Shown here: positions 14,101 to 43,183 of the stretch, in pieces | Position numbering within the stretch: the first letter of the stretch is position 1 | Layout of the letters: each line of letters opens with the position of its first letter | Origin: Candidatus Falkowbacteria bacterium RIFOXYC2_FULL_36_12 | GTDB taxonomy: Bacteria; Patescibacteriota; Patescibacteriia; UBA11705 | Reading direction: 5' to 3' | Length of the DNA: 64,000 nt | Assembly (NCBI GenBank): GCA_001778235.1 | Contig: MFGJ01000007.1 | Location: 264,331-328,330 of the forward strand | Program-made: the position numbers and the translations under genes | Notes under the pieces: generated by a model | Told to the model about the DNA's origin: nothing | The model's input: only the letters and a program-made list of their open reading frames with translations | Databases searched by the model: none

Positions 14101-17100
14101 TATATTGATTCAAATATAGATATTAATTTCCTGTGGGCCGGATTGTTGGCATCATAACTAACTGAAGAATTCAAATTTATGGCTTTGGTTGGATTTGAAA
14201 ATTCATCCCAACGCCAATTATAATCATAGGGATTTAAACGCTGACCAGCTGCGCTACAAATGTCTGGGGCTCCATAGGATGAAGCACTATAAACGATTTC
14301 ATCGCCTGCTCGCACGGAGGTATATTGACCTGGATTTACATCCACTCGATCAGGGCGACAATAAGCCTCTCCATCACGAACTTTGAAAACAAAACTATAG
14401 GCATCAAAAGCTGTAATCTGGTCAGTTGATTCAGTCTGGGTAACACAGCTTGAACAGCCTGAAGGAAAACTACAAATACAATCTGGATCACCGGCAGTAC
14501 AGGTGCTTCGTTTGGAGATACTGCATTCAGTCTGACAAATCTGGCGTTCAGATGGACAGCTATAATTCGGGATACTGGTAATCGGAGAACAAGTACAAGC
14601 TGAAATATTACCAGTACAAACTTGAGCTGGATTTTCTGCACAATGAGCGACTTTTATACAATTTCCTTTGACTGGATCAGGACTGAAACATTGTTCAGTT
14701 GGCATTTTTTCAAAAGTACCAACTTCCAAACAATTACATCCAACCGAAGAAGTGGTACAAGCTAAACCGATTGAGCCATCGGCCAATTGACAAGCTTTTT
14801 GTGCTTGGCAAGTACAAGCAGGAGCATCAGCGGAACAGAACTTTGTAGTATCTTGAGTACAGACTTTTGGTTCAATACAAGTGCAATTTAAAGAATCTTG
14901 GGTACATGTCTGACTAATATTTTCCTTGCAATATGACGCGCAAACAGGAGAGTCACAGGTCTTTGGGTCAGAACAAGAACAAGCAGTACTTATAATATCA
15001 TCGGTCGTGGTATCTAAATATTGATTACAAGTAGACAGAGCCTGACTACCGGTAAAAATCACTCTATCAACCTTCGAACAATTGGTTGCTTCGCATTGTT
15101 CAGATAAACTAAGTGTCGGGTAAGTTTCGAGTACTCCATTGCCACAACAAGCACCAAATTCAGAGTTATCACAATCCGGGAAACCTACTAAACGACAATC
15201 ATTTGAACAAACTGGGTTGTTGCCGAGTGAACAAACACAACCATCTGCACCAAAATCACATGAATTACCAGCTGTATTTTTACAAATTGCTTCGCATTGT
15301 TCTCCAGCATCTGCCTCAAGTACACCATTGCCACAAGTGCCGATTTCAGCTTGAGTATTGAAATTTAAACCAGTTAAATTCTTATTGCTAATGCTCAAAA
15401 TATTATCTTTTATAACCAAACGATAGTAAACTGATGGTTCAAGTGCAGTATTAGGGGAAACGGTTAAACGGTTACAGACATTAGTGCCAGCAATCGTTGT
15501 TTCTCCGGTTGTACTGTCACAAAGTATTTCAGGCGAAGCAGAATTATTTGACAGAAGATTGTCCTGACCAACTACAGAAAGACAGTTTTGATCATTACAA
15601 CGATATAAACTTATATTTGTATTGTTATTAAATAAAGACTCTTTTTTTATAAAAGTATTAAATTCAGCACCAAGTTCAGCGTTGCGACAAGCCTGATCAC
15701 AATTTGGCCAGAAATCAATTACCTTTGGGTCAAGAAGCTGAACTGATAAATTGGCTGAATCTGAAACTGTGTTACTGGAAAGGACAGCAGAAGCGGTGAT
15801 ATCAACTGGGTCATTGGCTGGGGTTTCAGGGTTTGTAACTCCAGACAATAAACCGAATAATGCTTCGTCACCATTTAATCCAGCAGAAGAAAGTCTCTCA
15901 ATAAGTCCCAGATATTTTGACTCTATTGACCAACTCCAATCGTATAATGAAACATTGATTATAGAACAATTCTGACCTTGACCATTAACAACATATTTTT
16001 GCGTATCCGCAATTGAATCAAGAACTCCATCTGAAGGATTTACCACAACAGAATTAATAGAACAGTCTTGTGATCCAGTATGAAAACGCCAAACATAATC
16101 ATTGCTCATCTGCTGAACCTCTCCATTTAGAGGAGAACTGCTAAGACCGGCTGGCACTTTTACCTGATACCAAAAGTCAGCACCAAGAGTTCCATAATTT
16201 TTTAGAGAAACTTCAGTGATTTCTTCGCCTTCAAAATTACTATTTGATAATTCATAAATATCTGGTTCACCTTCAACAACTCCTCGGACACTAAAACTGT
16301 AGGTGGAAGATTCACAACGATCAGCTTCGCAGGTATCAAGATTGCATTGGACTCCTGGTAAAATACATTTTCTAACCTCAATTTGATTACCCTCTTCGAG
16401 AAACGAACTTGGAGCCATTTCCATATTAAAAGAAAAAGCAATAACAGAATTTGGACAAGCACTGCCACTGTTTTTGGTTGGTGAAGGAGATTCATTGTAT
16501 TCTCCAGCTGAACAAGTTCTTTCAATAATTTTCGGCACTCGAGGAATTCTACCAGTGCTAAAGTACCAACCATATTCACAAGAAGTAACCTCGGCCTGAC
16601 ATTCAGAAGTAAGAGAACAATAATTGTCATTACAACAAACCTGACCAGCACCACAACTTCCAGCACTGCAACGCCCAACAGTAAATTGGGCTGGATTACT
16701 GTCCGCACCATTGCGAGAAACATAAACATTGCCTGTCTTGGCTAGAGCCGGGACAACCACTCCCTCAATTGATGCGTCGGTCCATTCAACATCGGTTAAA
16801 GCAAAACCTTCAACAATTTCATAAACACCATCTGATTTAAAGAATTTTATTTGTGCAGGACTGTTGCCAAAGCCAGTACCGACAATATTTATCTTTGTGC
16901 CGGGAGATCCATTGTTGGGACTAAGCGAACAAATTCCAGGAGAAACAGGTAAATCATTATTGACTACAAAATCTTTGGAATCCACACCTTTGACACCTGA
17001 AACTTGTAACACAAATGAACCATTGTCTAATTGTTCTGGAATTTTTATTTTTAGTTGATTATCTGACCAGAAATTTTGACAAACGCTGTCAGCTAAAAAG

Positions 17101-19127
17101 CTATCTGTACCTGACAAAAAGTTGACTGTTCCTGAACTGCCAAAATTTTTGCCTTCAATGGTAATTAATTGTCCGGAAGGTGCTGGGTTTTGGGAAATTG
17201 AAATTATTTCTAGGGCATCGGCTGATTTTTCAACCCTAAAATTGACAGGGTTACTGTATAAGCCAGGGAAGTTGTCCCTGCCAACTTGGACAGGAACATT
17301 GCCTGGAGCTAAATTTGGAATACGAATACCAGTAATAGTGGTGTTAGTTCGAGAAACTTCTGAAGTTGTAAATTGGTTGAAATAAACTTCACCAGTTGAA
17401 CCAAAGTTTTCGCCAACTGCATTGGCTAGAGAAGTAACTTCACCTGAAGGTAAATTTGATTGCTGATTGACAACAGAACATAAACCAATCCAATTGCTAT
17501 TATCAGCATTAATACTATAATTCCCTTTCCACCCCGGAGACTCAAGGTCTGAAGTGTTATTATAATTTCCATTTTTATCGGTTAAGATAATCGGACCATT
17601 GCCATTTTCAGGTACACGAACCACAACCTGTGTATCAAGCCATGAGCCTGTACGGCCACAAGCCAACTGTGCCTCCTGACCATTAAAAGTAATTTGGCTC
17701 TGATCACTAAATGATCTGAAATTTTTTCCTCGGAGAGTAACAAAAGAACCAACTGGACCAGAAGCTGGCAGGACACTTTCAATCACGGGATAAGGCCAAA
17801 GCTGACAAGATGTTTCACAAGTTGTAACTCCATTTAATTCAGTACAATTTATACCTTCTTGACAAACATAATCACAGCCCTCTGGATTAGTACATGCTGG
17901 ACACTGGTCAACTTCACAATCAGGCAAGGTGCAATCAAAATCATTAGCATCATTAAAGCAACTAGATGAAGCGACCAAAAATCGTTTAGTTGTTTGGCCA
18001 GAGTTGTCACTAAGATCAAGAGCAGAAAAAGTCGAAGTATGCCAACCGAGTTCGAAACCGGTGGTTTGAGAATTTATAATAGATAAATATTCAGACTGAC
18101 TATCTCCAGAAAGTGAAAATAGCTGGCAACTATCTGCTAAATCTGTTTGCTTGGTCGGGCATAGTTCAACACTTTGCAAGCCACCAACATCATTGGCGCT
18201 GACATCAGCGGCAATATCAAAATTTTGCTGTACAGGACTTGGCGACAGAGAATTAATAGAAACCTCTGGATTGTCAGTGTCACAGAAGCTACTGGTAGTA
18301 AATGCTGAACTCTGACAATAACCCTCAAGCTGTGAGGCACAATTTATTGTCTCACCTGTCTGATCTTGGAGATTTAAAACCTTTACAATATATGATGATC
18401 CTGAATCAAAACAATTTGGTTTGTTACAGCCTTCTGGGCAAACTGTATCTGGGGTAAAGGTTATAATACGGTTTAAAACTGAAATTTGACCGGCTACTGC
18501 CTGCTCTTCCCCATCAACAAGTTTGTAAACCTTTATATTGTCTTTGGCGTTTTGATAATCATTGTCTGATAACGGAACCCGACCAAATGGATAGGTGACT
18601 TTTACCAGTGAAGTAATTGGACGATCATTTCCTCGGGGAGAAATACTGACTGAAAAAACCACACCAGTTCCTCCACTTCCGCCGGCATTGTCAATCGGAG
18701 TAGACTGCTGACCTGAACCAGTAGCCTCTGATAATCTATTTATAATAAAACTTGTTAGGGCAAAGGCTGATAAAATAATTGCTAGACCAATAACACCATT
18801 AATAATCCACTGTTTGGCTTTGTCAACACCAGCTTCACTACCACCAGAGATCATGTAAAGAAATCCGCCATATAAAATTACGGCAATAGTTACTACGCCT
18901 AAAAAGCCTAGAAATATTCTAATTACGCGACCAACAATTATCCGAGGATCTTCAGCTCCCAGTACGGTGGCTTCACCAACCAACTGTGTACCTTCAACAA
19001 TGCTATTTTGGGCATGGGCAATAACGGGAAAAACAAAAAAGATTGCAACTACCATAAACATTAGCGCAACTAACAAACCTGAAAGTGTTTTTTGTTTTAT
19101 CATTTTATTTTTATTTAATATGGGCAA
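11118..19127 (-). CDS. giant (2669-aa) Cys-rich secreted/surface protein with a pilin-like N-terminal anchor, IPT/TIG domains and Myxococcus-type Cys-rich repeats
   Basis: Single 8-kb ORF. The N-terminus has a signal/TM segment, then GRVIRIFLGFLGVVTIAVILYGGFLYMISGGSEAGVDKAKQWIINGVIGLAIILSAFALTSFIINRL, a two-helix hairpin like VirB2/TrbC pilins. There are multiple IPT/TIG-like modules (PVIESVLPASGPVGSFVTLRGKNF, ISISQNPAPSGQLITIEGKNFG, CSLSPNNGSPGTKINIVGTGFG). Many CGNG..E.GE.CDDGN repeats of the TIGR02232 type are present. Confidence 0.8.
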   Translation of the reverse strand: MPILNKNKMIKQKTLSGLLVALMFMVVAIFFVFPVIAHAQNSIVEGTQLVGEATVLGAEDPRIIVGRVIRIFLGFLGVVTIAVILYGGFLYMISGGSEAGVDKAKQWIINGVIGLAIILSAFALTSFIINRLSEATGSGQQSTPIDNAGGSGGTGVVFSVSISPRGNDRPITSLVKVTYPFGRVPLSDNDYQNAKDNIKVYKLVDGEEQAVAGQISVLNRIITFTPDTVCPEGCNKPNCFDSGSSYIVKVLNLQDQTGETINCASQLEGYCQSSAFTTSSFCDTDNPEVSINSLSPSPVQQNFDIAADVSANDVGGLQSVELCPTKQTDLADSCQLFSLSGDSQSEYLSIINSQTTGFELGWHTSTFSALDLSDNSGQTTKRFLVASSSCFNDANDFDCTLPDCEVDQCPACTNPEGCDYVCQEGINCTELNGVTTCETSCQLWPYPVIESVLPASGPVGSFVTLRGKNFRSFSDQSQITFNGQEAQLACGRTGSWLDTQVVVRVPENGNGPIILTDKNGNYNNTSDLESPGWKGNYSINADNSNWIGLCSVVNQQSNLPSGEVTSLANAVGENFGSTGEVYFNQFTTSEVSRTNTTITGIRIPNLAPGNVPVQVGRDNFPGLYSNPVNFRVEKSADALEIISISQNPAPSGQLITIEGKNFGSSGTVNFLSGTDSFLADSVCQNFWSDNQLKIKIPEQLDNGSFVLQVSGVKGVDSKDFVVNNDLPVSPGICSLSPNNGSPGTKINIVGTGFGNSPAQIKFFKSDGVYEIVEGFALTDVEWTDASIEGVVVPALAKTGNVYVSRNGADSNPAQFTVGRCSAGSCGAGQVCCNDNYCSLTSECQAEVTSCEYGWYFSTGRIPRVPKIIERTCSAGEYNESPSPTKNSGSACPNSVIAFSFNMEMAPSSFLEEGNQIEVRKCILPGVQCNLDTCEADRCESSTYSFSVRGVVEGEPDIYELSNSNFEGEEITEVSLKNYGTLGADFWYQVKVPAGLSSSPLNGEVQQMSNDYVWRFHTGSQDCSINSVVVNPSDGVLDSIADTQKYVVNGQGQNCSIINVSLYDWSWSIESKYLGLIERLSSAGLNGDEALFGLLSGVTNPETPANDPVDITASAVLSSNTVSDSANLSVQLLDPKVIDFWPNCDQACRNAELGAEFNTFIKKESLFNNNTNISLYRCNDQNCLSVVGQDNLLSNNSASPEILCDSTTGETTIAGTNVCNRLTVSPNTALEPSVYYRLVIKDNILSISNKNLTGLNFNTQAEIGTCGNGVLEADAGEQCEAICKNTAGNSCDFGADGCVCSLGNNPVCSNDCRLVGFPDCDNSEFGACCGNGVLETYPTLSLSEQCEATNCSKVDRVIFTGSQALSTCNQYLDTTTDDIISTACSCSDPKTCDSPVCASYCKENISQTCTQDSLNCTCIEPKVCTQDTTKFCSADAPACTCQAQKACQLADGSIGLACTTSSVGCNCLEVGTFEKMPTEQCFSPDPVKGNCIKVAHCAENPAQVCTGNISACTCSPITSIPNYSCPSERQICQTECSISKRSTCTAGDPDCICSFPSGCSSCVTQTESTDQITAFDAYSFVFKVRDGEAYCRPDRVDVNPGQYTSVRAGDEIVYSASSYGAPDICSAAGQRLNPYDYNWRWDEFSNPTKAINLNSSVSYDANNPAHRKLISIFESIYLQQINPGCTENCLNLGSEPYQAVCGNSLVEVGEECDDGNVNNNDGCTDICLYSGTTACFGDSVLDSGAICCGNGTINFSEDCDDGNNASGDGCSAVCLNEGSTASGFTCGNSLKELGEDDDFGQLNQKFGLNNKCLYSGSNIKSSDRVAICGNGTIESGEECEPISVNCLDSNGSTCNPTRDSRCSCEQYSDAICSNTCLLSGFPACDQSTTRNCCGNGLGETYDGYEEECEYICQDAGKSCSYGSAGCSCIAPSWCTSECLNNGSAIIAGTSCNDGSVDPGEDYQCEGDDSGASFGSPKSLITVLGYLSIATSEETAMVRATLTENVTAEEKTAGATGISLQDSGELKYIYSGQAGPTPPGCDPNNPPRATMVSPDLANPVCRNSAIFVSYDLLLDDLLTGTSTASSHVEIEYQAENCTTGSLSFIGQIKDWFRKIFISSASALDWCKLDKGQYQITIRPISDKTQTSIFIQPNEILKSTRYKIILKDLKNNCRMSIPKQEFTFDVSTDICHFDSVGVDPAEKYATTVNETWSVHRFAKAGSNILFSTADYSWTWDNWRIDDGGLNIVSITNPAPDEFEASAGTQNGTATITAKAHIARDQFYGESGRTIEGSGIVTTFLCENPQTLDFPFDNLQMPYCRDAGQSNVLDDDLPAISVIPAGQAANEQNLLHQYFLLRQADITNDFSSDAISLRVYSNPGNLSARDWYLTNVPNAKTVVTEIKVDCATDPLYQTEICYYGVQDGNTIYISGGNKASVETQGTINRRLFNNIYVLGYNQQASPNTINIFSQLVDNISLNTNVSTSDELWAIKRDIKRVNDIVSIRQLLSSYYTQHSTLPKLESGTYLRSNVYSPWPSWQAEFANVLGRALSVDPVNSFASYEPSSLPEYNGVSCDNTNNGRKCFTSSDSCFTVNNQSICSLCRTGTDPKTCFNSETQEYQSNSFRSSHPFSGRDYVYWYTFNSFNSAQLDYKLEGILKGYYDSFSNNPDINISF

Positions 19128-21163
19128 AATTCACCTTCTTGGACATTTATTCCTTGTTCAACTTCACCACAACAGGCCTGCCCCTTATTCATTGGACCAC
19201 AACCTGGGCCAGAACATGGATTAAAACAATTACCACTCATATCTTGAATACCAGACAATATTTTTGGATAAATAATTGGAACATCAAGATTATCTTTTGC
19301 TTCAGGAAAAGCACCATGATTTATTACTGCCACTTTATCATTGGACAGACAAAAGATACTACCATCGGCAGAAACTTGCTTTGGGCAATATAAACTACCC
19401 ATAAACCAACTATTCCAATCATCAGAAACAATAATTAAATTATCATTGGTAACTGTTGATGGATCCAATGATTTTGAAAAGGTGGCGCTGACCAATGAAT
19501 TTGGTTCAACTCCGCTAGATTTATCAGCTCCATTTTCTGGAGTAACGCTAACAATGGTTGGAGCGACTAAATCAAAAGTATTGGAAGTTGCAAAATTCCA
19601 AGAAAAATTGTCATTATCTCCACTAGTTGATCCATTTGCTTTGCCTAATCGGCCATCTGTATCCAGAGCATTTAAAGCTGCGTCAACAATACCTCCGGCT
19701 GGATACAGCGCAACGGTTGGACCATTGCCAAGGAGATTTGATACTGGAACAGATTTTACCAGGCCTGAAATGGTGGCGTTTGCAGGAAAACAGGTAACTA
19801 CCTCGCCACAAGAGTTGTGCAAAGGAGCCTCATCACCACATGAACCTGAAGGCCTATAAACCAAAGAACGATACTGATTGATTCCAGCAGTAATATTACC
19901 ATTTAGAATCTCGCTTGAAGCTTGATCTAGAATTAAAAATTCTGCACCTGTTGAAGTAGCATCAAGAACTAAACTAACAGGTGGAATAACTGCTTCGCTG
20001 AAATCAACTCTAACTCGGGTATTTCTAGGAAAACCAGCGCCACCAGCATTACTGATTGCAATTGGCTGACCAGAGGCATCCAAATCAACAGGATAAACAG
20101 TAGTAATAAAAGGAGGTGTAACATCAATATTGGTAGTTGTAGTAAATTTCCAACGATAAACAGAGTCAGTCCTACCACTGAAAATACTGGTGTTACCATT
20201 AAAACTTTTGACATTTCCCGTAACCAAAGCAAAATATGAAACATCAGAGAATGGTGAACCTAGATGCGAATCAGCACTATTACCATATGGATTAAAGACT
20301 AATGTTTTGAAATCAGGTGTAAGACTAACAATACCATCGCTAATAAACAAAGAATCGTTTGGCTCATTACCTGTCCAATTGTTACAAATATTAGGCTGGC
20401 TACGATTGGCGTCACTATAATCTGCCGGAGCGCTTGAACCAGCTGGATAAAGGGTATCGCAGGCGCGATAAATCCCAAGAGATGAAATATCTAAATCACC
20501 CTGACAAACACAATTTTGTCCTGGCGCGATGGATGAACAAGCAGCTTGGGTTTCAATATCAATACAACTCATGGAATCATTAGCGATAATACTCTCTGGA
20601 TCAATTGGTTGTTTGAAAGTTACCATGATAACAGTATTGCGAGGTACACTAGCGTTATTGGCAGGATAATGATCTTGGATAACACCACCCAATCCCCCGC
20701 TACCTAGACCCGGTGGATTATAGCCATTTGCACCATAAGATCCGGGTGTACCAGTAGCTTGAGCAAGAGCATTAATAATAAATGAAACAATCGCAAAAGC
20801 TGATGCAATAATCGCAAGACCAATAAAAGCATTGATCAAAATCTGTTTTGCTTTACTAACTTTGGTTGGGTCACCGCCAGAAGTCATGTAAAGAAATCCT
20901 GCATATAAAACCAAAACCAAAGCAATGGTTCCAAGTAAACCCAAGAAAACACGAATAACTCTGGCAACAATAATTCTTGGGTCTACATTGCCCAAACCTG
21001 TTGCCTCACCAACAGCATCGGTGCCTTCAACAATACCAGCTTGACCGGCATGAACAGGAGAAATCAGCAAAAAAAATCCAGCCAGAGCAGAAGCAATGAC
21101 AAGCATTAAAATAACTGTTGTTCCTTTTTTCTTATAATGAGAAAAACTTAAAGATGTTATCAT
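19115..21163 (-). CDS. 682-aa Cys-rich surface protein, paralogous pilin-like N-terminal anchor
   Basis: The N-terminus ARVIRVFLGLLGTIALVLVLYAGFLYMTSGGDPTKVSKAKQILINAFIGLAIIASAFAIVSFIINAL is nearly identical in pattern to the giant protein. The C-terminus is Cys-rich. The gene overlaps the downstream giant gene by 13 nt, which suggests an operon. Confidence 0.75.
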   Translation of the reverse strand: MITSLSFSHYKKKGTTVILMLVIASALAGFFLLISPVHAGQAGIVEGTDAVGEATGLGNVDPRIIVARVIRVFLGLLGTIALVLVLYAGFLYMTSGGDPTKVSKAKQILINAFIGLAIIASAFAIVSFIINALAQATGTPGSYGANGYNPPGLGSGGLGGVIQDHYPANNASVPRNTVIMVTFKQPIDPESIIANDSMSCIDIETQAACSSIAPGQNCVCQGDLDISSLGIYRACDTLYPAGSSAPADYSDANRSQPNICNNWTGNEPNDSLFISDGIVSLTPDFKTLVFNPYGNSADSHLGSPFSDVSYFALVTGNVKSFNGNTSIFSGRTDSVYRWKFTTTTNIDVTPPFITTVYPVDLDASGQPIAISNAGGAGFPRNTRVRVDFSEAVIPPVSLVLDATSTGAEFLILDQASSEILNGNITAGINQYRSLVYRPSGSCGDEAPLHNSCGEVVTCFPANATISGLVKSVPVSNLLGNGPTVALYPAGGIVDAALNALDTDGRLGKANGSTSGDNDNFSWNFATSNTFDLVAPTIVSVTPENGADKSSGVEPNSLVSATFSKSLDPSTVTNDNLIIVSDDWNSWFMGSLYCPKQVSADGSIFCLSNDKVAVINHGAFPEAKDNLDVPIIYPKILSGIQDMSGNCFNPCSGPGCGPMNKGQACCGEVEQGINVQEGEFCPY

Positions 21164-21189
21164 CTCTTTGGCTGTTTATATCTAAAATA

Positions 21190-30916: not shown

Positions 30917-31312
30917 ATTTTTCATTAAAAAAACACTGATGATTTAATCGGTGTTTTATAATTATTTTGTGCAAGGCATGAAGATCAACTAATGCCTAGC
31001 CCAGAAAAAACACCAAGAGTCGGTGCAAGATAGCTGAAGCCTATTGGCACTGGGCTATTTTCAGTATTAATGCATAATAAAAATCTTCAACACTCTGACT
31101 TTGTTTTGTCAACAGTCTAAACTTTTATGTGTTATAATGAATTTGACATGTTTGCATGGTTCTGATAGTTTTAGTATTTGTAAAGAAAAAAATATTGATG
31201 CTGGTCAAAGATTACTAAATTTCTGAAGGAATATTCTGAATTATAAAAAAACATTTGAGCTGTGATTCAGGAGAAAATTTAGCTTTATATCATATCTATT
31301 AATTACTTCATT

Positions 31313-33514: not shown

Positions 33515-33520
33515 TATTAA

Positions 33521-33552
33521 TATAAAAAAGGAACCTTCAAAGGTTTCTTTTT
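33521..33552 (+). terminator. intrinsic terminator after topA
   Basis: ggaaccttcaaaggtttc hairpin followed by tttttt. Confidence 0.5.
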
Positions 33553-33861
33553 TAGTGCAGGAGTCAGGATTTTAACCCCGATTAAAGTTGATGATAGGGT
33601 ATCACTGAACCCCTGCAATTATAATTATAACTAATATTGTTGGTTAAACAAAATTTATTGCCCTTTTTTCAAAAAAACAAAAAGTCCTCGGAACAATCCA
33701 AGAACTTTTCGTAGATCGGGATATCCCCTATCATCAACATCAATATAATAGCAAAGTTTAGATGATTTGTCAAGACTTAAAGCTGAAATGGCGTTGCCTT
33801 GATAAAAACTGGATTTTTTGTCATAATACAATATAATATAAATATAAAGATAAAAGAGGAT

Positions 33862-35505
33862 ATGCAAACTAGGTTTGAAAAAATTTTGCAAAATCTTGAA
33901 AAAAACTCCATTAAATCAACACCTGAAATACTTCAGAGAGCTTTTAATTTTTTACAAAGCCAGGAACCTACAATGTCTGAACAGGAGAAACAAGAGTTGA
34001 TACTAAAACCACTGGATGTGGCTCATAACTACTCGCTCCAGGCAATTACGCCTGAACTTGTAGCGGTCTTCATGCTGGCTCCAATTTCAAGAAAAAATCA
34101 GCAAATAGAACAAGAAATCAATAAACTTTTTGATAAGAAATTTACTCAAATACTAAAAGCTTATAATTTGGCTGAAACAAATCTAAAAACAAAGATTGAC
34201 GATCGTTGCTCTTTTGCACATACGCTGAATACCACATTGCAGATTGATCCGCTAAATCTCGGCTATGAAGTTATTTGCGCATCATTATTAAAACATGTAC
34301 CAGAATTTTCCAATATAACCATAGATGAAATCAAAAATGAGTTCGGCGATGATATTGCGGAAATTATTATCAATGTAAATAAGTTAAAATCTCTAAGGTC
34401 ATTGCCTCACAAAGCAAATACAATTGATTTGCAACAGATGTTTCTGTCTTTATCAAAAGATATTAGAGTCATATTGATAAAAATGTGCTCATTGATTGAT
34501 ATGTTAATAAATCTGCATGAGATAAAGGAATCACACAGAACAAGAATAGCAACAGAAGCAATGCATATCTACGCACCAATCGCTGATATCCTAGGTATCT
34601 GGCGGATAAAATGGCAACTGGAAGATTATTCTTTTAAACATTTAAATCCAACTGAATATGATAAAATCAGCCAAAGGTTTAATGTGGATGAGAAAAAAAA
34701 TCGTGAAAAATATATTGAAAAAACAAAACAAGTAATTTTTAAAAAGGCGCAGGAACAAGGGATTGAATGTCAGCTTGATGGAAGATTTAAACACTTCTAT
34801 AGTATTTACAAAAAAATGAATAATTACCAGAAGGACTTTAATGAGGTTTATGATGTATTTGCACTAAGAGTAATTGTCAACAATATTGAAGACTGCTATC
34901 GAATGCTTGGTTTAATCCATCAAACATGGAAACCGAAATCTGAAAGAATAAAAGATTATATTGCTGCACCAAAAAAAAATAGCTATCAGAGTTTACATAC
35001 TACGGTATATGGTATTAATGGTAGGATGACAGAATTTCAAATTAGAACAAAAGAGATGGATGACTCGGCTAAATTTGGAGTTGCCTCCCACTGGCTGTAT
35101 AAACACAATAATCCAAAACTACCAAAATGGGTCAATCACTTTTTATCTTATGCCAGCCAAAATCCACTTGAGCAAATAAATTCAGAATTCCTTTTTGATC
35201 AAATTTTTGTTTATACCCCCAAGAGAGACATTATTTCCTTACCAAAAGGTTCAAATGCAATTGATTTTGCCTACCACATACATACTGATCTTGGCCATAA
35301 ATTTAATGGCGTTAAGATAAATGGACAACTAGCAAATGAATGGCAAAAGTTAAAAAATGAAGATGTGGTTGAGATAATTACCAATCCAAAACAGTCTTTA
35401 CCAAAGGCTGAATGGCTAAAAATGGTTAAGAGTCCACTGGCAATCAAAGTTATAAAAACAGCACTTAATCAAGACGATGAACCAAAAAGACCAGCCTTGA
35501 TGTAA
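33862..35505 (+). CDS. RelA/SpoT homolog, short form: degenerate HD + synthetase + TGS (RelA-like)
   Basis: Synthetase block YDVFALRVIV...YQSLHTTVYG...EFQIRTKEMDDSAKFGVASHWLYK. TGS FVYTPKRDIISLPKGSNAIDFAYHIHTDLGHKF. The HD motif is absent from the N-terminal domain. There is no ACT/RRM C-terminus. The track ORF begins at 33799; RBS agagga precedes the Met at 33862. Confidence 0.7.
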   Translation: MQTRFEKILQNLEKNSIKSTPEILQRAFNFLQSQEPTMSEQEKQELILKPLDVAHNYSLQAITPELVAVFMLAPISRKNQQIEQEINKLFDKKFTQILKAYNLAETNLKTKIDDRCSFAHTLNTTLQIDPLNLGYEVICASLLKHVPEFSNITIDEIKNEFGDDIAEIIINVNKLKSLRSLPHKANTIDLQQMFLSLSKDIRVILIKMCSLIDMLINLHEIKESHRTRIATEAMHIYAPIADILGIWRIKWQLEDYSFKHLNPTEYDKISQRFNVDEKKNREKYIEKTKQVIFKKAQEQGIECQLDGRFKHFYSIYKKMNNYQKDFNEVYDVFALRVIVNNIEDCYRMLGLIHQTWKPKSERIKDYIAAPKKNSYQSLHTTVYGINGRMTEFQIRTKEMDDSAKFGVASHWLYKHNNPKLPKWVNHFLSYASQNPLEQINSEFLFDQIFVYTPKRDIISLPKGSNAIDFAYHIHTDLGHKFNGVKINGQLANEWQKLKNEDVVEIITNPKQSLPKAEWLKMVKSPLAIKVIKTALNQDDEPKRPALM

Positions 35506-35541
35506 TAATTGTGTTATAATCAATATTATTGAGATAAAAAA

Positions 35542-37005
35542 ATGTCTATAAGAAAATTAATCTCAACAATTAAAAAATTTCATCCTGAAGCAGACACTTC
35601 TATGGTCGAGCTGGCTTATGATTTTGCGAAGACTGCTCATGCAGGACAAAAAAGAGCAACAGGAAATGAATATATAAATCATTCACTCGCCACAGCACAA
35701 ATATTGGCAGAACTAAAATTATCCCCAACAATTATTATTGCTGGACTGCTTCATGATGTTCCAGAAGATACAGAATATACACTGGAAGATGTGAAAAAAA
35801 ACTTTGGAGCTGAAGTTGCCAGTATTGTAAAAGGGATTACTAAACTTAGTAATATTAAATATCGTGGCATGGATCGCTATGTTGAGAATCTGCGTAAAAT
35901 GTTTGTGGCCATGGCCGAAGATATCAGAGTCATAATCGTAAAATTTGCTGATAGACTTCACAACTTAAATACTCTTTATGCTCTACCAGCCAACAAACAA
36001 AAAAGAATTGCCATGGAATCTCTGGAAATCTATGTCCCGATTGCAAATAGACTTGGTATTGGAGAACTGCAGTCAAGACTTGAAGACAATGCTTTTAAAT
36101 ATGCCTATCCTGATGAGTTCATGTGGGTTGAGCAATTGATAAAAAAGCAGGTGCCAATAAAAACGAAAACTCTGAACCAGATGAAAACAAAATTATCAAA
36201 TGAACTGAAAAAAGAAAGCATAAATTTTGAGGAAATTTATGGTAGGAATAAACATTATTATAGTTTGTTCCGAAAACTTTTGAGATTTAATCGTGATATC
36301 AGTAAAATTTATGACATAGTGGCAATCAGAGTAATTGTGAAAAATATTGCTGATTGTTATGCTGTACTTGGAGTGGTCCATAATCTATGGAAACCAGTAA
36401 AAGGACGAATAAAAGATTATATTGCCCAGCCAAAACCAAATGGTTATCAGTCTTTGCACACAACTGTTTTCGGTGATAACAAAGAAATTGTTGAATTTCA
36501 AATTCGTACCAAGAAAATGCATGAACAAGCAGAGTTTGGTATTGCTGCACACTGGGAATATAAAGAAGGTAAAAATGGACCAGAAAAAATAAAAAAAGAA
36601 GTTGCCTGGGTGCAAGATCTAGCAAAATGGTTAAAAGAAGTTCGAGACAATGAAAGTTTTCTCGAAGGAGCAAAAATTGATGTTTTCCAAAATAGAATTT
36701 TTGTTTTTACTCCCCAGGGTGAAGTCATTGACCTACCAGATGGAGCAACTCCAGTAGATTTTGCTTATCATATTCATACAGACCTTGGCAACAAATGTGA
36801 ACGAGCATATATTAATGACCAACAAATAAGTCTGGATACGAGATTGAAAAACGGCGATGTGGTCCAGATTGTAACGGCTAAAAAACGCAAGGGGCCAAAC
36901 CCTGAATGGCTAAAATTTGTTAAGACTAGAACTGCGCGCCAACATATTATGAATTTTCGCAATAAAAGTTGGAGAAATATTATTTCAAAATTTTCAAAAA
37001 AATAA
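35542..37005 (+). CDS. RelA/SpoT homolog, short form: intact HD hydrolase + synthetase + TGS (SpoT-like)
   Basis: HD: HSLATAQILAEL...GLLHDVPEDT. Synthetase: YDIVAIRVIV...YQSLHTTVFG...EFQIRTKKMHEQAEFGIAAHWEYKEG. TGS: FVFTPQGEVIDLPDGATPVDFAYHIHTDLGNKC. 487 aa with no ACT domain. Confidence 0.75.
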   Translation: MSIRKLISTIKKFHPEADTSMVELAYDFAKTAHAGQKRATGNEYINHSLATAQILAELKLSPTIIIAGLLHDVPEDTEYTLEDVKKNFGAEVASIVKGITKLSNIKYRGMDRYVENLRKMFVAMAEDIRVIIVKFADRLHNLNTLYALPANKQKRIAMESLEIYVPIANRLGIGELQSRLEDNAFKYAYPDEFMWVEQLIKKQVPIKTKTLNQMKTKLSNELKKESINFEEIYGRNKHYYSLFRKLLRFNRDISKIYDIVAIRVIVKNIADCYAVLGVVHNLWKPVKGRIKDYIAQPKPNGYQSLHTTVFGDNKEIVEFQIRTKKMHEQAEFGIAAHWEYKEGKNGPEKIKKEVAWVQDLAKWLKEVRDNESFLEGAKIDVFQNRIFVFTPQGEVIDLPDGATPVDFAYHIHTDLGNKCERAYINDQQISLDTRLKNGDVVQIVTAKKRKGPNPEWLKFVKTRTARQHIMNFRNKSWRNIISKFSKK

Positions 37006-37077
37006 ATACAATCTTAATTCAAATTATTGATTATACTGATTTCTGATATAATATTAGTAGATTAGTAGTAATTTGTA

Positions 37078-37881
37078 ATGTGTAATCTTATGAAAAAAGT
37101 TTTTTTGGCATTGATAGTATTGTTGTCTTTAATTATTGCGCCGAGTCAAGTACTAGCAGTCAGTGCAGGAAACGCCTGTACCGGCGGACCTGGGAATGGA
37201 AATTGTGATGCAGGTTTATTTTGTGGAGTACTGAATGAATGTGAACCAAAAATAATTACCGGCGGAAGCTTAAATTGTTTTGAAAATTTTGAATGCCAAT
37301 CAAATAACTGCAATCCGGAGTCTAATGAATGTGAAGCCGCTACAACACCAACTCCAACTGATGTCTGTACTGCTGACACGGATTGTCCAAGTAATAAATA
37401 TTGTCTGATCGCTGGAGACGGGACAACATCCTGCGTAAATAAATTAGCCAATGGTGCGACTGGTTGCTTTCGAAATAGTAATTGTGTGTCAAACAATTGC
37501 GATCTTGCAACTGCAACTTGCCAAGCGGCAACAGGTGCTCCCACTCCACCCGTTGGATCAACTACACCGCTGGGGGCAGAGACAACGCCAGCGATCGAAG
37601 CAGAAACTGAAACTGAAACAACTAGACTGGTGAATCCGCTTGGGACTGATTCTCTACAAGTGATTATTGGTCGAGTAATTAGATTTTTCATTGGAATTGC
37701 TGGGACTACTGCTTTGGCGGTTTTGGTCTATGGTGGTATTATTTTATTAATCTCTGGCGGTCGAGATACTTATATAAAAAAAGGTAGAAATGCAGTAATT
37801 TACTCGGTTTTGGGCTTAGCAATTATTTTCTCAAGCTATATTTTAGTTAAATTTATTATTGCGGCCTTATCACAAGCATAA
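37078..37881 (+). CDS. secreted Cys-rich protein with a C-terminal pilin-like (VirB2/TrbC-type) hairpin
   Basis: A signal peptide, then 4 Cys-rich modules (C..C......C, e.g. CFENFECQSNNCNPESNECE). The C-terminus IGRVIRFFIGIAGTTALAVLVYGGIILLISGGRDTYIKKGRNAVIYSVLGLAIIFSSYILVKFIIAAL matches the N-terminal module of the 2669-aa and 682-aa proteins. Confidence 0.6.
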   Translation: MCNLMKKVFLALIVLLSLIIAPSQVLAVSAGNACTGGPGNGNCDAGLFCGVLNECEPKIITGGSLNCFENFECQSNNCNPESNECEAATTPTPTDVCTADTDCPSNKYCLIAGDGTTSCVNKLANGATGCFRNSNCVSNNCDLATATCQAATGAPTPPVGSTTPLGAETTPAIEAETETETTRLVNPLGTDSLQVIIGRVIRFFIGIAGTTALAVLVYGGIILLISGGRDTYIKKGRNAVIYSVLGLAIIFSSYILVKFIIAALSQA

Positions 37882-42722: not shown

Positions 42723-42809
42723 GCCGAAGTGGCGGAACTGGTAGACGCGCTGGACTCAAAATCCAGTGGTGGCAACATCGTGAGAGTTCGAGTCTCTCCT
42801 TCGGCACCA
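42723..42809 (+). tRNA. tRNA-Leu (anticodon CAA), CCA encoded
   Basis: Hand fold: acceptor GCCGAAG/CTTCGGC. Anticodon stem CTGGA/TCCAG with loop CTCAAAA. Long variable arm. T-arm GAGAG-TTCGAGT-CTCTC. Discriminator A followed by CCA. Confidence 0.85.
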
Positions 42810-42895
42810 TACAAAATTAAAAGATTATAATAAACTATAGACTTAGCTTGATGTTTTTCTAAATTTAAGCTATAATATACAACAATACTAATTAG

Positions 42896-42970
42896 CGCGG
42901 GGTAGAGCAGTGGCAGCTCGCTAGGCCCATAACCTAGAGGTCGGGGGTTCGAATCCCCCCCCCGCAACCA
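42896..42970 (+). tRNA. tRNA-Met (anticodon CAU), initiator-like with a C1xA72 mismatch, CCA encoded
   Basis: Hand fold: acceptor CGCGGGG/CCCCGCA with unpaired C1-A72. D-stem GAGC/GCTC. Anticodon stem CTAGG/CCTAG with loop CCCATAA (C at position 33). T-arm GGGGG-TTCGAAT-CCCCC. Confidence 0.75.
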
Positions 42971-43106
42971 AGGTGTATTCATTACAGTGTTGGTAGAAAT
43001 TCTTGGCAAGTCAAGTTAAACCGTGGATTGTCAAGAAATTTTACGAACAAACATTGCTTCACTTGTAATTGGGCTTGTTCCGAAGTGAACCATAGCCACT
43101 ACTTCG

Positions 43107-43183
43107 GGGCAGGGTAGCTCAGCTGGTTAGAGCGAGGGAATCATAACCCCTAGGTCGGCGGTTCAATTCCGCCCCCTGTCACC
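43107..43183 (+). tRNA. tRNA with CAU anticodon (elongator Met or Ile2/lysidine), CCA encoded
   Basis: Acceptor GGCAGGG/CCCTGTC with a G-U at 2:71. D-stem GCTC/GAGC. Anticodon loop ATCATAA. T-arm GGCGG-TTCAATT-CCGCC. Confidence 0.75.

What the first reader, a model, noticed from the sequence alone, without database searches (positions are those of the whole stretch)
33862..37005. Two tandem short RelA/SpoT homologs: one with a degenerate HD, one SpoT-like, both lacking C-terminal regulatory domains
Adjacent same-strand genes encode 548- and 487-aa RSH proteins, each with a synthetase domain (DxxAxRxIV, YQSLHTTV, EFQIRT..H..AE.G.A.HW.YK) and a TGS domain. Both stop before the ACT/RRM region. 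The first lacks the HD dyad and the second keeps it (HSLATAQ...LLHDVPED). The pair therefore resembles a RelA (synthetase-only) plus SpoT (bifunctional) split, but in truncated form. A tandem duplicate with a dead hydrolase suggests subfunctionalised (p)ppGpp or pppApp control in a reduced genome. Stand-alone synthetase-active RSHs can also act as toxins in toxSAS-type modules.
Basis: partly seen in the sequence, partly recalled or inferred. Interest (0 to 1): 0.55.

Follow-up and report, generated by a model that had tools for sequence, protein, structure and literature searches.

The report
Paired minimal alarmone enzymes in CPR bacterium
A groundwater ultra-small (CPR) bacterium carries two adjacent, shortened stress-alarmone (ppGpp) enzymes, one that has lost its degrading site and one that keeps both activities; this repeats the well-known RelA/SpoT division of labour independently, in a stripped-down form.

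Summary
g1 (33862-35505, 547 aa) and g2 (35542-37005, 487 aa) are both HD–synthetase–TGS proteins that end about 40 residues after TGS. They are separate, complete genes from Candidatus Falkowbacteria. g2 keeps every hydrolase and synthetase catalytic residue. g1 keeps every synthetase residue and the tRNA-sensing TGS histidine. It has lost R44, Y50, D78, D82, D144 and N148 of the hydrolase site.

The RelA-plus-SpoT-like reading holds as an analogy, not as family membership.

- The pair is not a recent tandem duplicate. g2 is the resident single-copy Rel of the TopA–ParB locus. g1 descends from a different CPR Rel lineage ("A") that elsewhere sits 12 kb away.
- An intermediate exists: an upstream copy with the HD dyad kept and the site half-decayed.
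- g1's extra ~60 residues are an internal duplication of the first HD helices.

The pair is co-inherited in at least 30 genomes, and g1-type proteins evolve 1.65 times faster. A toxSAS-like module is not supported. Lineage-specific second long RSHs (RshB) and truncation after TGS (RshC) are already known, so this is a new variant of a known kind. All catalytic activities are inferred from sequence.

The parts
33799..33842 (+). Promoter-like region upstream of g1. It contains TTGATA-17-CATAAT with an upstream TG, and a second TATAAT at 33837-33842 that aligns with a conserved block.
   Evidence: Consensus scan. A conserved TTGATT...TATAAT block lies at the 3' end of the TopA-RSH spacer alignment. 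It is also present in front of the single Rel gene in B-only loci. The promoter is inferred, not shown.
33862..35505 (+). g1 ('T1'): a 547-aa truncated long RSH with a pseudo-hydrolase domain, an intact synthetase domain and a TGS domain.
   Evidence: ORF. Pfam HD_4 / RelA_SpoT / TGS. 100% identical to OGF30704.1 of Cand. Falkowbacteria bacterium RIFOXYA2_FULL_35_8.
33862..34116 (+). g1 N-terminal extension (aa 1-85): a degenerate internal duplicate of the first four helices of the HD domain.
   Evidence: hhalign of the T1 N-terminus against T2 residues 1-75 gives Prob 97.4%, E 1.4e-11. Against T1's own residues ~91-151 it gives Prob 95%, E 2e-8. The AF2 model is helical here, with pLDDT above 90 in most 10-residue blocks (one block at 73). 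Mean pairwise identity within the family is only 27%.
34117..34611 (+). g1 pseudo-HD domain (aa 86-250). H120 (=H53) is kept. The other key sites read K144-H145 (=H77-D78), E148-F149 (=E81-D82), S210 (=D144), D213 (=H147) and M214 (=N148). The R44/K45 loop is deleted.
   Evidence: Residue-by-residue alignment to B. subtilis Rel 6YXA and the family tables. The T1-specific motif K-M-C-S-x-I-D is conserved (C209, S210 and D213 at 90% or more).
34780..35112 (+). g1 synthetase domain (aa 307-417). It contains G307-R308-x-K310-H311, D331 (=D264), R362-I-K364-D365 (the RxKD motif), Y375 (=Y308), H379, E391 (=E323), Q393 and R395.
   Evidence: Pfam RelA_SpoT, E 7.7e-41. These residues are 97-100% conserved in 59 T1 proteins. 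Mean pairwise identity is 71%, against 76% in T2.
35203..35382 (+). g1 TGS domain (aa 448-507), including H474, the equivalent of B. subtilis Rel H420 and E. coli RelA H432.
   Evidence: Pfam TGS, E 1.3e-19. H474 is invariant. The role of this histidine in stacking on the tRNA 3' CCA end comes from PMC7797070.
35506..35541 (+). 36-nt spacer between g1 and g2, holding an extended -10 element TGTTATAAT at 35512-35520. This is a probable internal promoter for g2.
   Evidence: Sequence. TGnTATAAT also lies in the spacers of L084, L086 and L087. The motif occurs 12 times in the window against 4.2 expected, and other copies precede topA and the pilin-like gene. No terminator was detected between the genes. 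The promoter is inferred.
35542..37005 (+). g2 ('T2', clade B): a 487-aa truncated Rel with intact hydrolase and synthetase sites and a TGS domain.
   Evidence: ORF. Pfam HD_4, HD, RelA_SpoT and TGS. TIGR00691 scores 606 bits against a cut-off of 499.
35614..36060 (+). g2 HD (hydrolase) domain (aa 25-173). It contains R38, Y44, H47, H71-D72, E75-D76, D137 and N141, which correspond to R44, Y50, H53, H77-D78, E81-D82, D144 and N148.
   Evidence: These residues are 100% conserved in 64 partner T2 proteins.
36241..36573 (+). g2 synthetase domain (aa 234-344). It contains D258, R289-I-K291-D292, Y302, H306, E318, Q320 and R322.
36697..36876 (+). g2 TGS domain (aa 386-445, with H412). It is followed by a conserved ~40-aa basic stub (aa 447-487) that corresponds to the start of the helical domain.
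   Evidence: The stub is 69% identical among T2 proteins.
21164..21189 (.). Empty 'slot A': a 26-nt gap between the pilin/Big_5 gene and yqeY. In related genomes a single clade-A truncated Rel sits here.
   Evidence: Window ORFs compared with L088, L089 and L112.

Best explanation
The locus is a conserved two-gene alarmone module of a Falkowbacteria-related clade of Patescibacteria (CPR). Both products are minimal long RSH enzymes (HD–SYNTH–TGS plus a short stub). They lack the helical, zinc-finger and RRM domains that dock Rel/RelA on the ribosome.

g2 is the resident housekeeping Rel of the TopA–ParB locus. From its intact sites it is predicted to be bifunctional, supplying Mn-dependent (p)ppGpp hydrolysis plus synthesis.

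g1 is predicted to be a synthetase-only enzyme. Its synthetase site and its tRNA-sensing TGS histidine are under strong constraint. Its hydrolase site has been dismantled and remodelled into a conserved pseudo-HD. A duplicated four-helix N-terminal segment has been added in front of it.

g1 is not a copy of g2. It comes from a second CPR Rel lineage (clade A) that in other genomes is the sole Rel, located 12 kb away. Once an A-type gene sat directly upstream of the B-type gene, its hydrolase became redundant and decayed. P0078 represents a half-decayed stage.

The genes are co-transcribed or translationally coupled (spacers from -4 to 92 nt). g2 usually also has its own extended -10 promoter, so the hydrolase-bearing enzyme can be made without g1 as well as with it.

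Shown: gene structure, residue states, conservation, synteny and co-inheritance. Inferred: all enzymatic activities, regulation by deacylated tRNA, and promoter use.
For: Domains and truncation.

Catalytic inventory across 59 T1 and 64 partner T2 proteins:
- T2 keeps the metal-binding and catalytic hydrolase residues at 100% (two flanking positions, H147 and T151, at 86-94%) and the synthetase residues at 95-100%.
- T1 keeps the synthetase residues at 97-100%.
- T1 shows D144 to S in 97%, D78 kept in only 8%, and R44, Y50, E81, D82 and N148 lost.

Domain-wise constraint in T1 against T2: SYN 71% vs 76%, TGS 60% vs 77%, HD 43% vs 77%, N-extension 27%. The TGS histidine is 100% conserved in all groups.

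Tandem order T1 then T2 was seen directly in the window, L084-L087 and L109/L134. It was also seen through consecutive accessions for P0029/P0137 and P0059/P0244.

Pairwise distances of 33 T1/T2 pairs correlate (Mantel r 0.73, 0 of 2000 permutations reached it), and T1 evolves 1.65 times faster.

B-type Rel is alone in the same DprA–TopA–[Rel]–ParB–ParA slot in L092, L093, L099, L106, L115 and L118. A-type Rel is alone in the pilin–[Rel]–YqeY–S21–HisRS slot in L088, L089 and L112. That slot is empty in the window.

T1 shares derived states with clade A in 11 of 25 informative columns, against 3 with its partner clade. NJ bootstrap support is 100% for T1+P0078 and 0% for T1+B1.

The intermediate P0078 is 489 aa with no N-extension. 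It keeps the HD dyad, but ED has become EE and ADRLHN has become VERLDI. It lies upstream of a B-type gene and of ParB/ParA.

N-terminal duplication. AF2 model: pLDDT 87, pTM 0.83. Fold matches to Rel, RelA and SpoT. Spacers and promoter motif.
Against: - No activity was measured. Sequence-intact synthetase sites can be weak or silent, as in E. coli SpoT.
- A B. subtilis Rel truncation lacking ZFD and RRM (residues 1-583, which still keeps most of the helical domain) has raised hydrolysis and compromised synthesis (PMC7797070). Either enzyme might therefore behave differently from the prediction.
- Most T1 proteins keep H53, H77, an E at position 78 and a new D at position 147. These could still bind a metal. 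g1 itself has K-H at positions 77-78.
- The phylogeny is neighbour-joining on fast-evolving sequences. The T1+clade A grouping has only 62% bootstrap support.
- Most pairings rest on a proxy (equal contig length).
- Only one locus (L112) shows both slots in an A-type genome. 'A and B are mutually exclusive outside the tandem' therefore rests on very few cases.
Confidence: 0.7

Rival explanations
1. Recent tandem duplication with subfunctionalisation: g1 is a copy of g2 that lost its hydrolase.
For: The genes are adjacent on the same strand, share the same truncated architecture and are 39% identical.
Against: g1 is more similar to clade-A Rels (up to 46% identity, 414 bits) than to g2. Signature columns favour clade A over the partner clade by 11 to 3. 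NJ bootstrap support for T1+B1 is 0%. The B-type gene is the syntenic single-copy resident in relatives.
Confidence: 0.1
2. Toxin–antitoxin-like module (toxSAS logic): g1 is a growth-arresting alarmone synthetase, and g2 is its hydrolase antidote.
For: A hydrolase-dead synthetase lies next to a hydrolase-competent gene. One ortholog pair overlaps by 4 nt. Known toxSAS systems include hydrolase antitoxins (PMC7229694).
Against: g1 has three domains including TGS, whereas toxSAS toxins are single-domain. The locus lies in a conserved ~25-kb housekeeping syntenic block with no mobile-element genes. The pair is vertically co-inherited. g2 is the sole housekeeping Rel in relatives. PADLOC gives only a partial synthetase-domain hit to PDC-S33.
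Confidence: 0.07
3. g1 is a non-catalytic regulatory pseudoenzyme, for example a partner that modulates g2, rather than an active synthetase.
For: g1 evolves faster. It scores below the TIGR00691 cut-off, 450 bits against 499. It carries an extra N-terminal module.
Against: All synthetase catalytic and substrate residues are 97-100% conserved over 59 diverged sequences. The SYN domain is nearly as constrained as in T2.
Confidence: 0.08
4. The remodelled HD of T1 proteins is still an enzyme, with a changed metal site (H53, H77, E78, D147) and a different substrate.
For: The T1-specific motif is conserved: S144 in 97%, D147 in 93%, H53 in 100% and H77 in 75%.
Against: The substrate-binding R44/K45 loop is deleted, and Y50, E81/D82 and N148 are lost. 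g1 itself has K and H at positions 77-78. The HD domain is the least constrained catalytic domain, at 43% identity.
Confidence: 0.05

Closest known systems
RelA + SpoT of Beta/Gammaproteobacteria (subfunctionalised long RSH pair; Atkinson 2011, PMC3153485)
   Same: One paralogue has an inactive HD and an active-looking synthetase. The other has an intact HD. The HD domain of the synthetase-only copy diverges fast.
   Different: The origin is independent, within CPR. Both proteins carry RxKD, not RelA's ExDD. Both lack the helical, ZFD and RRM domains. The genes are adjacent and co-inherited. The two copies come from two distinct Rel lineages rather than from one duplication. Scores are far below the RelA and SpoT equivalog cut-offs.
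RshB of Bacteroidetes (lineage-specific second long RSH with RelA-like HD divergence; Atkinson 2011)
   Same: It is a clade-restricted second long RSH whose HD domain has diverged strongly while its synthetase domain has not.
   Different: RshB has the full-length architecture and is reported as nested within its own phylum's Rel. Here the protein is truncated, has an internal HD-helix duplication, and sits in tandem with the resident Rel.
RshC of some Bacillus strains (long RSH truncated within the helical domain; Atkinson 2011)
   Same: The architecture is the same: HD–SYNTH–TGS, ending inside the helical domain, with no CC/ZFD and no ACT/RRM.
   Different: RshC is a rare second copy in six Bacillus strains. 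In CPR the truncated form is the main, and usually the only, Rel: all 8 CPR loci and all 240 proteins. No relationship between the two was tested.
B. subtilis Rel (PDB 6YXA, residues 1-556) and engineered C-terminal truncations (PMC7797070)
   Same: It is the best sequence and structure match (E 5e-94; Foldseek E 1e-30). The catalytic residue numbering transfers directly, and the TGS H420 equivalent is conserved.
   Different: In B. subtilis the truncations are artificial and mis-regulated. Here a still shorter form is the natural, conserved state.
toxSAS toxin–antitoxin modules (Jimmy 2020, PMC7229694)
   Same: The layout is bicistronic, with a synthetase next to a potential hydrolase.
   Different: toxSAS toxins are single-domain SAS enzymes in patchy, mobile contexts. 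g1 is a three-domain long RSH in a conserved core-genome block.

Membership tests
Long RSH (Rel/RelA/SpoT-type) of the RelA/SpoT homologue superfamily | N-terminal HD-fold domain followed by a RelA_SpoT synthetase domain | tested here: met
   Pfam HD_4 and RelA_SpoT hit both proteins. The AF2 model matches Rel, RelA and SpoT structures.
Long RSH (Rel/RelA/SpoT-type) of the RelA/SpoT homologue superfamily | TGS domain after the synthetase domain | tested here: met
   PF02824 hits at E 1e-19 and 8e-24. The CCA-sensing histidine is conserved.
Long RSH (Rel/RelA/SpoT-type) of the RelA/SpoT homologue superfamily | Helical, ZFD/CC and RRM/ACT domains (the full six-domain architecture) | tested here: not met
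   Both proteins end about 40 aa after TGS. TIGR00691 is matched only to position ~454 of 687. No ACT or RIS Pfam hits were found. Atkinson 2011 still classes such truncated forms (RshC) as long RSHs.
Long RSH (Rel/RelA/SpoT-type) of the RelA/SpoT homologue superfamily | NCBIfam TIGR00691 spoT_relA whole-protein cut-off (499.2 bits) | tested here: inconclusive
   g2 scores 606 bits and passes. g1 scores 450 bits and fails.
RelA (monofunctional synthetase of Beta/Gammaproteobacteria) | Catalytically inactive HD domain | tested here: met
   g1 has lost R44, Y50, H77, D78, D82, D144 and N148. The loss of activity is inferred from sequence only.
RelA (monofunctional synthetase of Beta/Gammaproteobacteria) | Acidic ExDD motif in place of the RxKD motif of bifunctional enzymes | tested here: not met
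   g1 has R362-I-K364-D365. RxKD is present in 100% of T1 proteins.
RelA (monofunctional synthetase of Beta/Gammaproteobacteria) | Equivalog-level sequence membership (NF008124, cut-off 728 bits) | tested here: not met
   g1 scores 300 bits and g2 scores 362 bits.
SpoT (Beta/Gammaproteobacteria) | Equivalog-level sequence membership (NF008303, cut-off 947 bits) | tested here: not met
   g2 scores 452 bits and g1 scores 331 bits.
SpoT (Beta/Gammaproteobacteria) | Intact HD metal and catalytic residues (H53, H77, D78, E81, D82, D144, N148) | tested here: met
   All are present in g2 and 100% conserved in its orthologues.
toxSAS toxin–antitoxin system | The toxin is a single-domain small alarmone synthetase without HD or C-terminal domains | tested here: not met
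   g1 has a pseudo-HD, a synthetase domain and a TGS domain.
toxSAS toxin–antitoxin system | Conserved bicistronic arrangement with a neutralising partner | tested here: inconclusive
   The bicistronic arrangement is conserved. However, the partner is the housekeeping Rel, which occurs alone in relatives.
toxSAS toxin–antitoxin system | Toxicity of the synthetase, with rescue by the neighbouring gene | not testable with these tools
   This needs expression experiments.

The most novel reading that the evidence does not exclude
The pseudo-HD of g1-type proteins, together with the duplicated four-helix N-terminal segment, is a newly evolved sensory or regulatory module. It would replace the missing ribosome-binding C-terminal domains. 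CPR bacteria would then run a ribosome-independent alarmone circuit: a ligand-, tRNA- or partner-gated dedicated synthetase (g1) working against, or in complex with, a minimal bifunctional Rel (g2). The remodelled H/H/E/D site would bind a metal or a nucleotide effector.
Probability: 0.2. Interest if true: 0.6.

Novelty: new variant of a known kind. Interest (0 to 1): 0.42.

Why it matters
The work bears on three questions.

- **How CPR bacteria trigger the stringent response.** In this sample, CPR bacteria carry only a minimal Rel that lacks the domains known to dock stringent factors on starved ribosomes. It still keeps the histidine that reads the uncharged tRNA end. How starvation is sensed in these organisms is therefore an open and testable question.
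- **A natural replay of the RelA/SpoT split.** This clade offers an independent replay with a preserved intermediate: an HD-dyad-retaining, half-decayed upstream copy. That allows the order of events in hydrolase loss to be reconstructed.
- **Annotation.** g1-type proteins are labelled 'bifunctional (p)ppGpp synthetase/hydrolase' in public records. That label is probably wrong.

The truncated enzymes are also compact natural constructs for structural work on HD–SYNTH–TGS coupling.

Tried and rejected
- **Frameshift or split gene.** Rejected. Each gene has a full domain set, g1 ends in a double stop, and the pair is identical in 15 contigs.
- **Longer TTG start for g1 (33799).** Rejected in favour of the ATG at 33862, which has a Shine-Dalgarno sequence and matches homologue N-termini and gene calls.
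- **Genome-contig scan with the T1 alignment.** The patterns chosen were universal synthetase motifs. The scan was useful only to show that all CPR hits are ~480-497 aa while most non-CPR hits are ~700-800 aa (a few ~576-667 aa, several of them from truncated ORF calls).
- **First midpoint-rooted NJ tree.** It put T1 outside everything, a long-branch effect. It was replaced by signature columns, outgroup rooting and bootstraps.
- **Representative-library search with g1 residues 1-250.** Only about five cluster representatives cover the N-extension, so the family is small. No new relatives were found that changed the picture.
- **PADLOC.** Only a domain-level hit.
- **Rfam and ARAGORN on the upstream spacer.** No known family.
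- **Literature searches for CPR or Patescibacteria RSH.** Nothing specific was found.
- **Model coordinates.** The geometry of the remodelled HD pocket and the packing of the N-extension could not be measured.


Full report
**What is there.** The window comes from Candidatus Falkowbacteria bacterium RIFOXYA2_FULL_35_8, a member of the Patescibacteria/CPR from Rifle groundwater. g1 is 100% identical to OGF30704.1 and g2 to OGF30705.1. g1 runs from 33862 to 35505 and encodes 547 aa. Its ATG follows AAGAGG. g2 runs from 35542 to 37005 and encodes 487 aa. Pfam finds HD_4, RelA_SpoT and TGS in both. Only g2 also hits the catalytic HD model PF01966. The proteins are 39% identical over 422 residues. 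No third RSH is in the window. Each gene has a full domain set, g1 ends TAA TAA, and the same pair occurs on 15 contigs from independent assemblies. A split gene is therefore excluded.

**Architecture.** Both proteins stop about 40 residues after TGS, inside the first helix of the helical domain. TIGR00691 is matched only to position ~454 of 687. The alignment to B. subtilis Rel (6YXA) ends near residue 475. This is not peculiar to the window.
- All 240 relatives returned by two searches carry only HD_4, RelA_SpoT and TGS, with or without HD. One is fused to a pilin domain.
- In a species-level genome scan, every CPR-type locus had a 477-497-aa gene, while most non-CPR hits were ~700-800 aa (a few ~576-667 aa, several of them from truncated ORF calls).
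- Atkinson et al. 2011 describe the same truncation only for RshC of six Bacillus strains.

**Catalytic inventory.** I used B. subtilis / RelSeq numbering, transferred through the 6YXA alignment. I compared 59 g1-type (T1) proteins, 64 partner g2-type (B1) proteins, and related and outgroup Rels.
- g2-type proteins keep R44, Y50, H53, H77, D78, E81, D82, D144 and N148 at 100%, and all synthetase residues (R241-type R, K, D264, RxKD, K304, N306, Y308, H312, E323, Q325, R327) at 95-100%.
- T1 proteins keep the synthetase residues at 97-100%.
- In the T1 HD domain the R44/K45 loop is deleted. Y50 has become L/I. D78 has become E (54%) or H (20%). E81 and D82 are lost. D144 has become S (97%) and N148 has become R/L. 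H53 stays at 100% and a new D appears at position 147 (93%).
- g1 itself reads H120, K144-H145, E148-F149, S210, D213 and M214.
- Both paralogues have RxKD, not RelA's ExDD.
- The TGS histidine that stacks on the 3' CCA of uncharged tRNA (H420 in B. subtilis, H432 in E. coli; PMC7797070) is invariant in all groups.
- Mean pairwise identity by domain, T1 against T2: HD 43% vs 77%, SYN 71% vs 76%, TGS 60% vs 77%. The T1 N-extension is 27%.

This is the pattern expected of a synthetase-only enzyme with a retained but non-hydrolytic HD fold.

**The extra length of g1.** Profile–profile comparison shows that T1 residues 1-77 are homologous to residues 1-75 of g2-type proteins (Prob 97.4%, E 1.4e-11). 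They are also homologous to T1's own residues ~91-151 (Prob 95%, E 2e-8). g1 therefore carries an internal duplication of the first four HD helices. AlphaFold2 with the family alignment gives a confident model (pLDDT 87, pTM 0.83). The extension is helical, with pLDDT above 90 in most 10-residue blocks (one block at 73). The model matches Rel, RelA and SpoT structures.

**Conservation of the pair.** The order T1 then T2 is seen directly in the window, L084, L085, L086, L087 and L109/L134. It is also seen through consecutive protein accessions for P0029/P0137 and P0059/P0244. Spacers are 36, 18, -4, 92 and 24 nt. About 30 further T1/T2 pairs share an identical longest-contig length. For 33 such pairs the two distance matrices correlate (Mantel r 0.73, 0 of 2000 permutations reached it). 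T1 evolves 1.65 times faster. Same-genome comparisons give 41-54% identity for T1 against 62-79% for T2.

**Origin: not a tandem duplicate.** HD-intact truncated CPR Rels fall into two groups.
- Clade B contains g2, its partners and single-copy relatives.
- Clade A contains the proteins that were g1's best non-T1 hits.

T1 agrees with clade A at 11 of 25 clade-discriminating columns and with its own partner clade at 3. These include derived states absent from outgroup Rels: R170L, G174W, the VF of DVFALR, and A274K/R. NJ bootstraps give 0% for T1+B1 and 62% for T1 with clade A.

Synteny sharpens this. A ~25-kb block is conserved: giant TIG/Big_5 protein, pilin/Big_5, [slot A], YqeY, S21, HisRS, signal peptidase, LytR, Der, Pth, DprA, (FolC), TopA, [slot B]..., ParB, ParA.
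- B-type Rel sits alone in slot B in L092, L093, L099, L106, L115 and L118. Slot A is visibly empty in L118.
- A-type Rel sits alone in slot A in L088, L089 and L112. No RSH lies after TopA in L112.
- In the window, slot A is a 26-nt gap (21164-21189), and slot B holds g1+g2.

g2 is therefore the resident gene, and g1 descends from an A-type gene placed between the ancestral promoter block and the B-type gene.

**An intermediate.** In L090/L091 the upstream gene of a tandem pair (P0078, 489 aa, no N-extension) keeps the HD dyad. However, ED has become EE, and ADRLHN has become VERLDI, which corresponds to D144E, H147D and N148I. It is followed by a B-type gene and ParB/ParA. It groups with T1 at 100% bootstrap, and at 86-88% for the HD and SYN+TGS regions taken separately. 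The tandem arrangement therefore came first. Hydrolase decay and the N-terminal duplication came later.

**Expression signals (inferred).** A promoter-like block precedes g1. No terminator was detected between the genes. An extended -10 element (TGnTATAAT) lies in the g1–g2 spacer of the window (35512-35520) and in the spacers of L084, L086 and L087. The motif is enriched in the window, with 12 copies against 4.2 expected, and it precedes other genes. g2 can thus be made with g1 and also independently of it.

**Mechanism proposed.** g2 is the housekeeping bifunctional enzyme and supplies the only (p)ppGpp hydrolase. g1 adds dedicated synthetase capacity. Its pseudo-HD and N-terminal module act as regulatory elements, and its TGS domain is possibly gated by uncharged tRNA. 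A B. subtilis Rel truncation lacking ZFD and RRM is hydrolase-biased, synthetase-poor and defective in ribosome activation. That gives a rationale for why a clade with only minimal Rels might retain a second, synthetase-committed copy. All activities are inferred from sequence.

**Rivals.**
- A recent tandem duplication is contradicted.
- A toxSAS-like module is unlikely, given the multi-domain protein, the core-genome synteny, the vertical co-inheritance and the absence of a PADLOC system hit.
- A fully non-catalytic g1 is unlikely, given the conservation of the synthetase residues.
- A re-purposed HD enzyme cannot be excluded for T1 proteins that keep H/H/E/D, but the substrate loop is deleted.

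**Comparison with known systems.** The pair works like RelA/SpoT but belongs to neither family. Equivalog scores are far below the cut-offs, and the motif is RxKD. Lineage-specific second long RSHs are known (RshA-D), including RshB with RelA-like HD divergence and RshC with this same truncation. The updated classification lists 13 long-RSH subfamilies and does not mention CPR in its main text. Literature searches found no description of CPR RSH architecture or of this pair.

The finding is a new variant of a known kind. It combines a clade-specific paralogue family built from two truncated Rel lineages, an internal HD-helix duplication and a preserved intermediate.

**Side observation.** The TopA–RSH spacer carries two conserved minus-strand small-RNA-like genes with canonical promoters and terminators. 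One of them has a closing helix supported by compensatory changes at 8 of its 9 pairs. Details are in the noticed-in-passing list.

Noticed in passing
window 33515-33790, minus strand (RNA2 core 33550-33618; RNA1 ~33738-33667): Two conserved small-RNA-like genes lie between topA and g1 on the opposite strand. Each has a sigma70-like promoter and a hairpin plus T-run terminator. The RNA2 terminator is bidirectional and shared with topA.

RNA2 is ~62 nt. Its closing helix shows compensatory double changes at 8 of its 9 pairs across 11 sequences. It also has an invariant ACCCU/GGGGU inner helix and an invariant GGGGUUAAAUCC.

The 5' end of RNA1 (GUUGAUGAUAGGG) is complementary to the RNA2 loop, and this complementarity co-varies between clades.

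A covariance model finds RNA2 in 17 loci, all of them B-type, T1+B or Ax+B loci. It finds none in A-only loci. There is no Rfam, tRNA or tmRNA match. The function is unknown.
   Followed up: partly
window 11118-42311; slot A at 21164-21189: A ~25-kb gene order is conserved across related CPR genomes: giant TIG/Big_5 protein, pilin/Big_5, YqeY, S21, HisRS, signal peptidase, LytR, Der, Pth, DprA, FolC, TopA, RSH pair..., ParB, ParA. The place where clade-A genomes carry their single Rel is an empty 26-nt gap in this window.
   Followed up: yes
window 35512-35520, 31130-31138, 37044-37052 and nine other sites: The extended -10 motif TGnTATAAT occurs 12 times against 4.2 expected by shuffling. Several copies lie just upstream of genes (topA, g2, the pilin-like gene). 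This suggests that promoters independent of a -35 element are common in this genome.
   Followed up: partly
P0029, P0034, P0036, P0040 (orthologues of g1 in public records): NCBI names several g1-type proteins 'bifunctional (p)ppGpp synthetase/guanosine-3',5'-bis(diphosphate) 3'-pyrophosphohydrolase', although their hydrolase residues are lost. This is a likely over-annotation.
   Followed up: partly
window 37078-37881 (+); P0204 in another genome: A T4SS_pilin-domain protein with a Cys-rich N-terminal half lies directly downstream of g2, and the same is true in most orthologous loci. In one Falkowbacteria record the g2 orthologue is called as a 704-aa fusion with the pilin domain (P0204). This could be a real fusion or a gene-call artefact.
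   Followed up: no
window 11118-21163 (-): A 2669-aa TIG/Big_5 repeat protein overlaps by 13 nt with a 682-aa T4SS_pilin/Big_5 protein. Homologous giant pairs flank the clade-A Rel in L088 and L089.
   Followed up: no
L006, L031 (labelled Gammaproteobacteria); P0164 (labelled Bipolaricaulota): These records carry CPR-type 484-486-aa truncated Rel genes that are 60-67% identical to g2. They are probably mis-binned or mis-labelled CPR contigs.
   Followed up: no
window 42723-43181 (+); 1688-3751 (-); 60403-62280 (+): Ordinary features seen while reading the window: a cluster of three tRNA genes, an anaerobic ribonucleotide reductase NrdD with an ATP-cone, and a PolyA_pol/HD protein that is a likely CCA-adding enzyme.
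   Followed up: no
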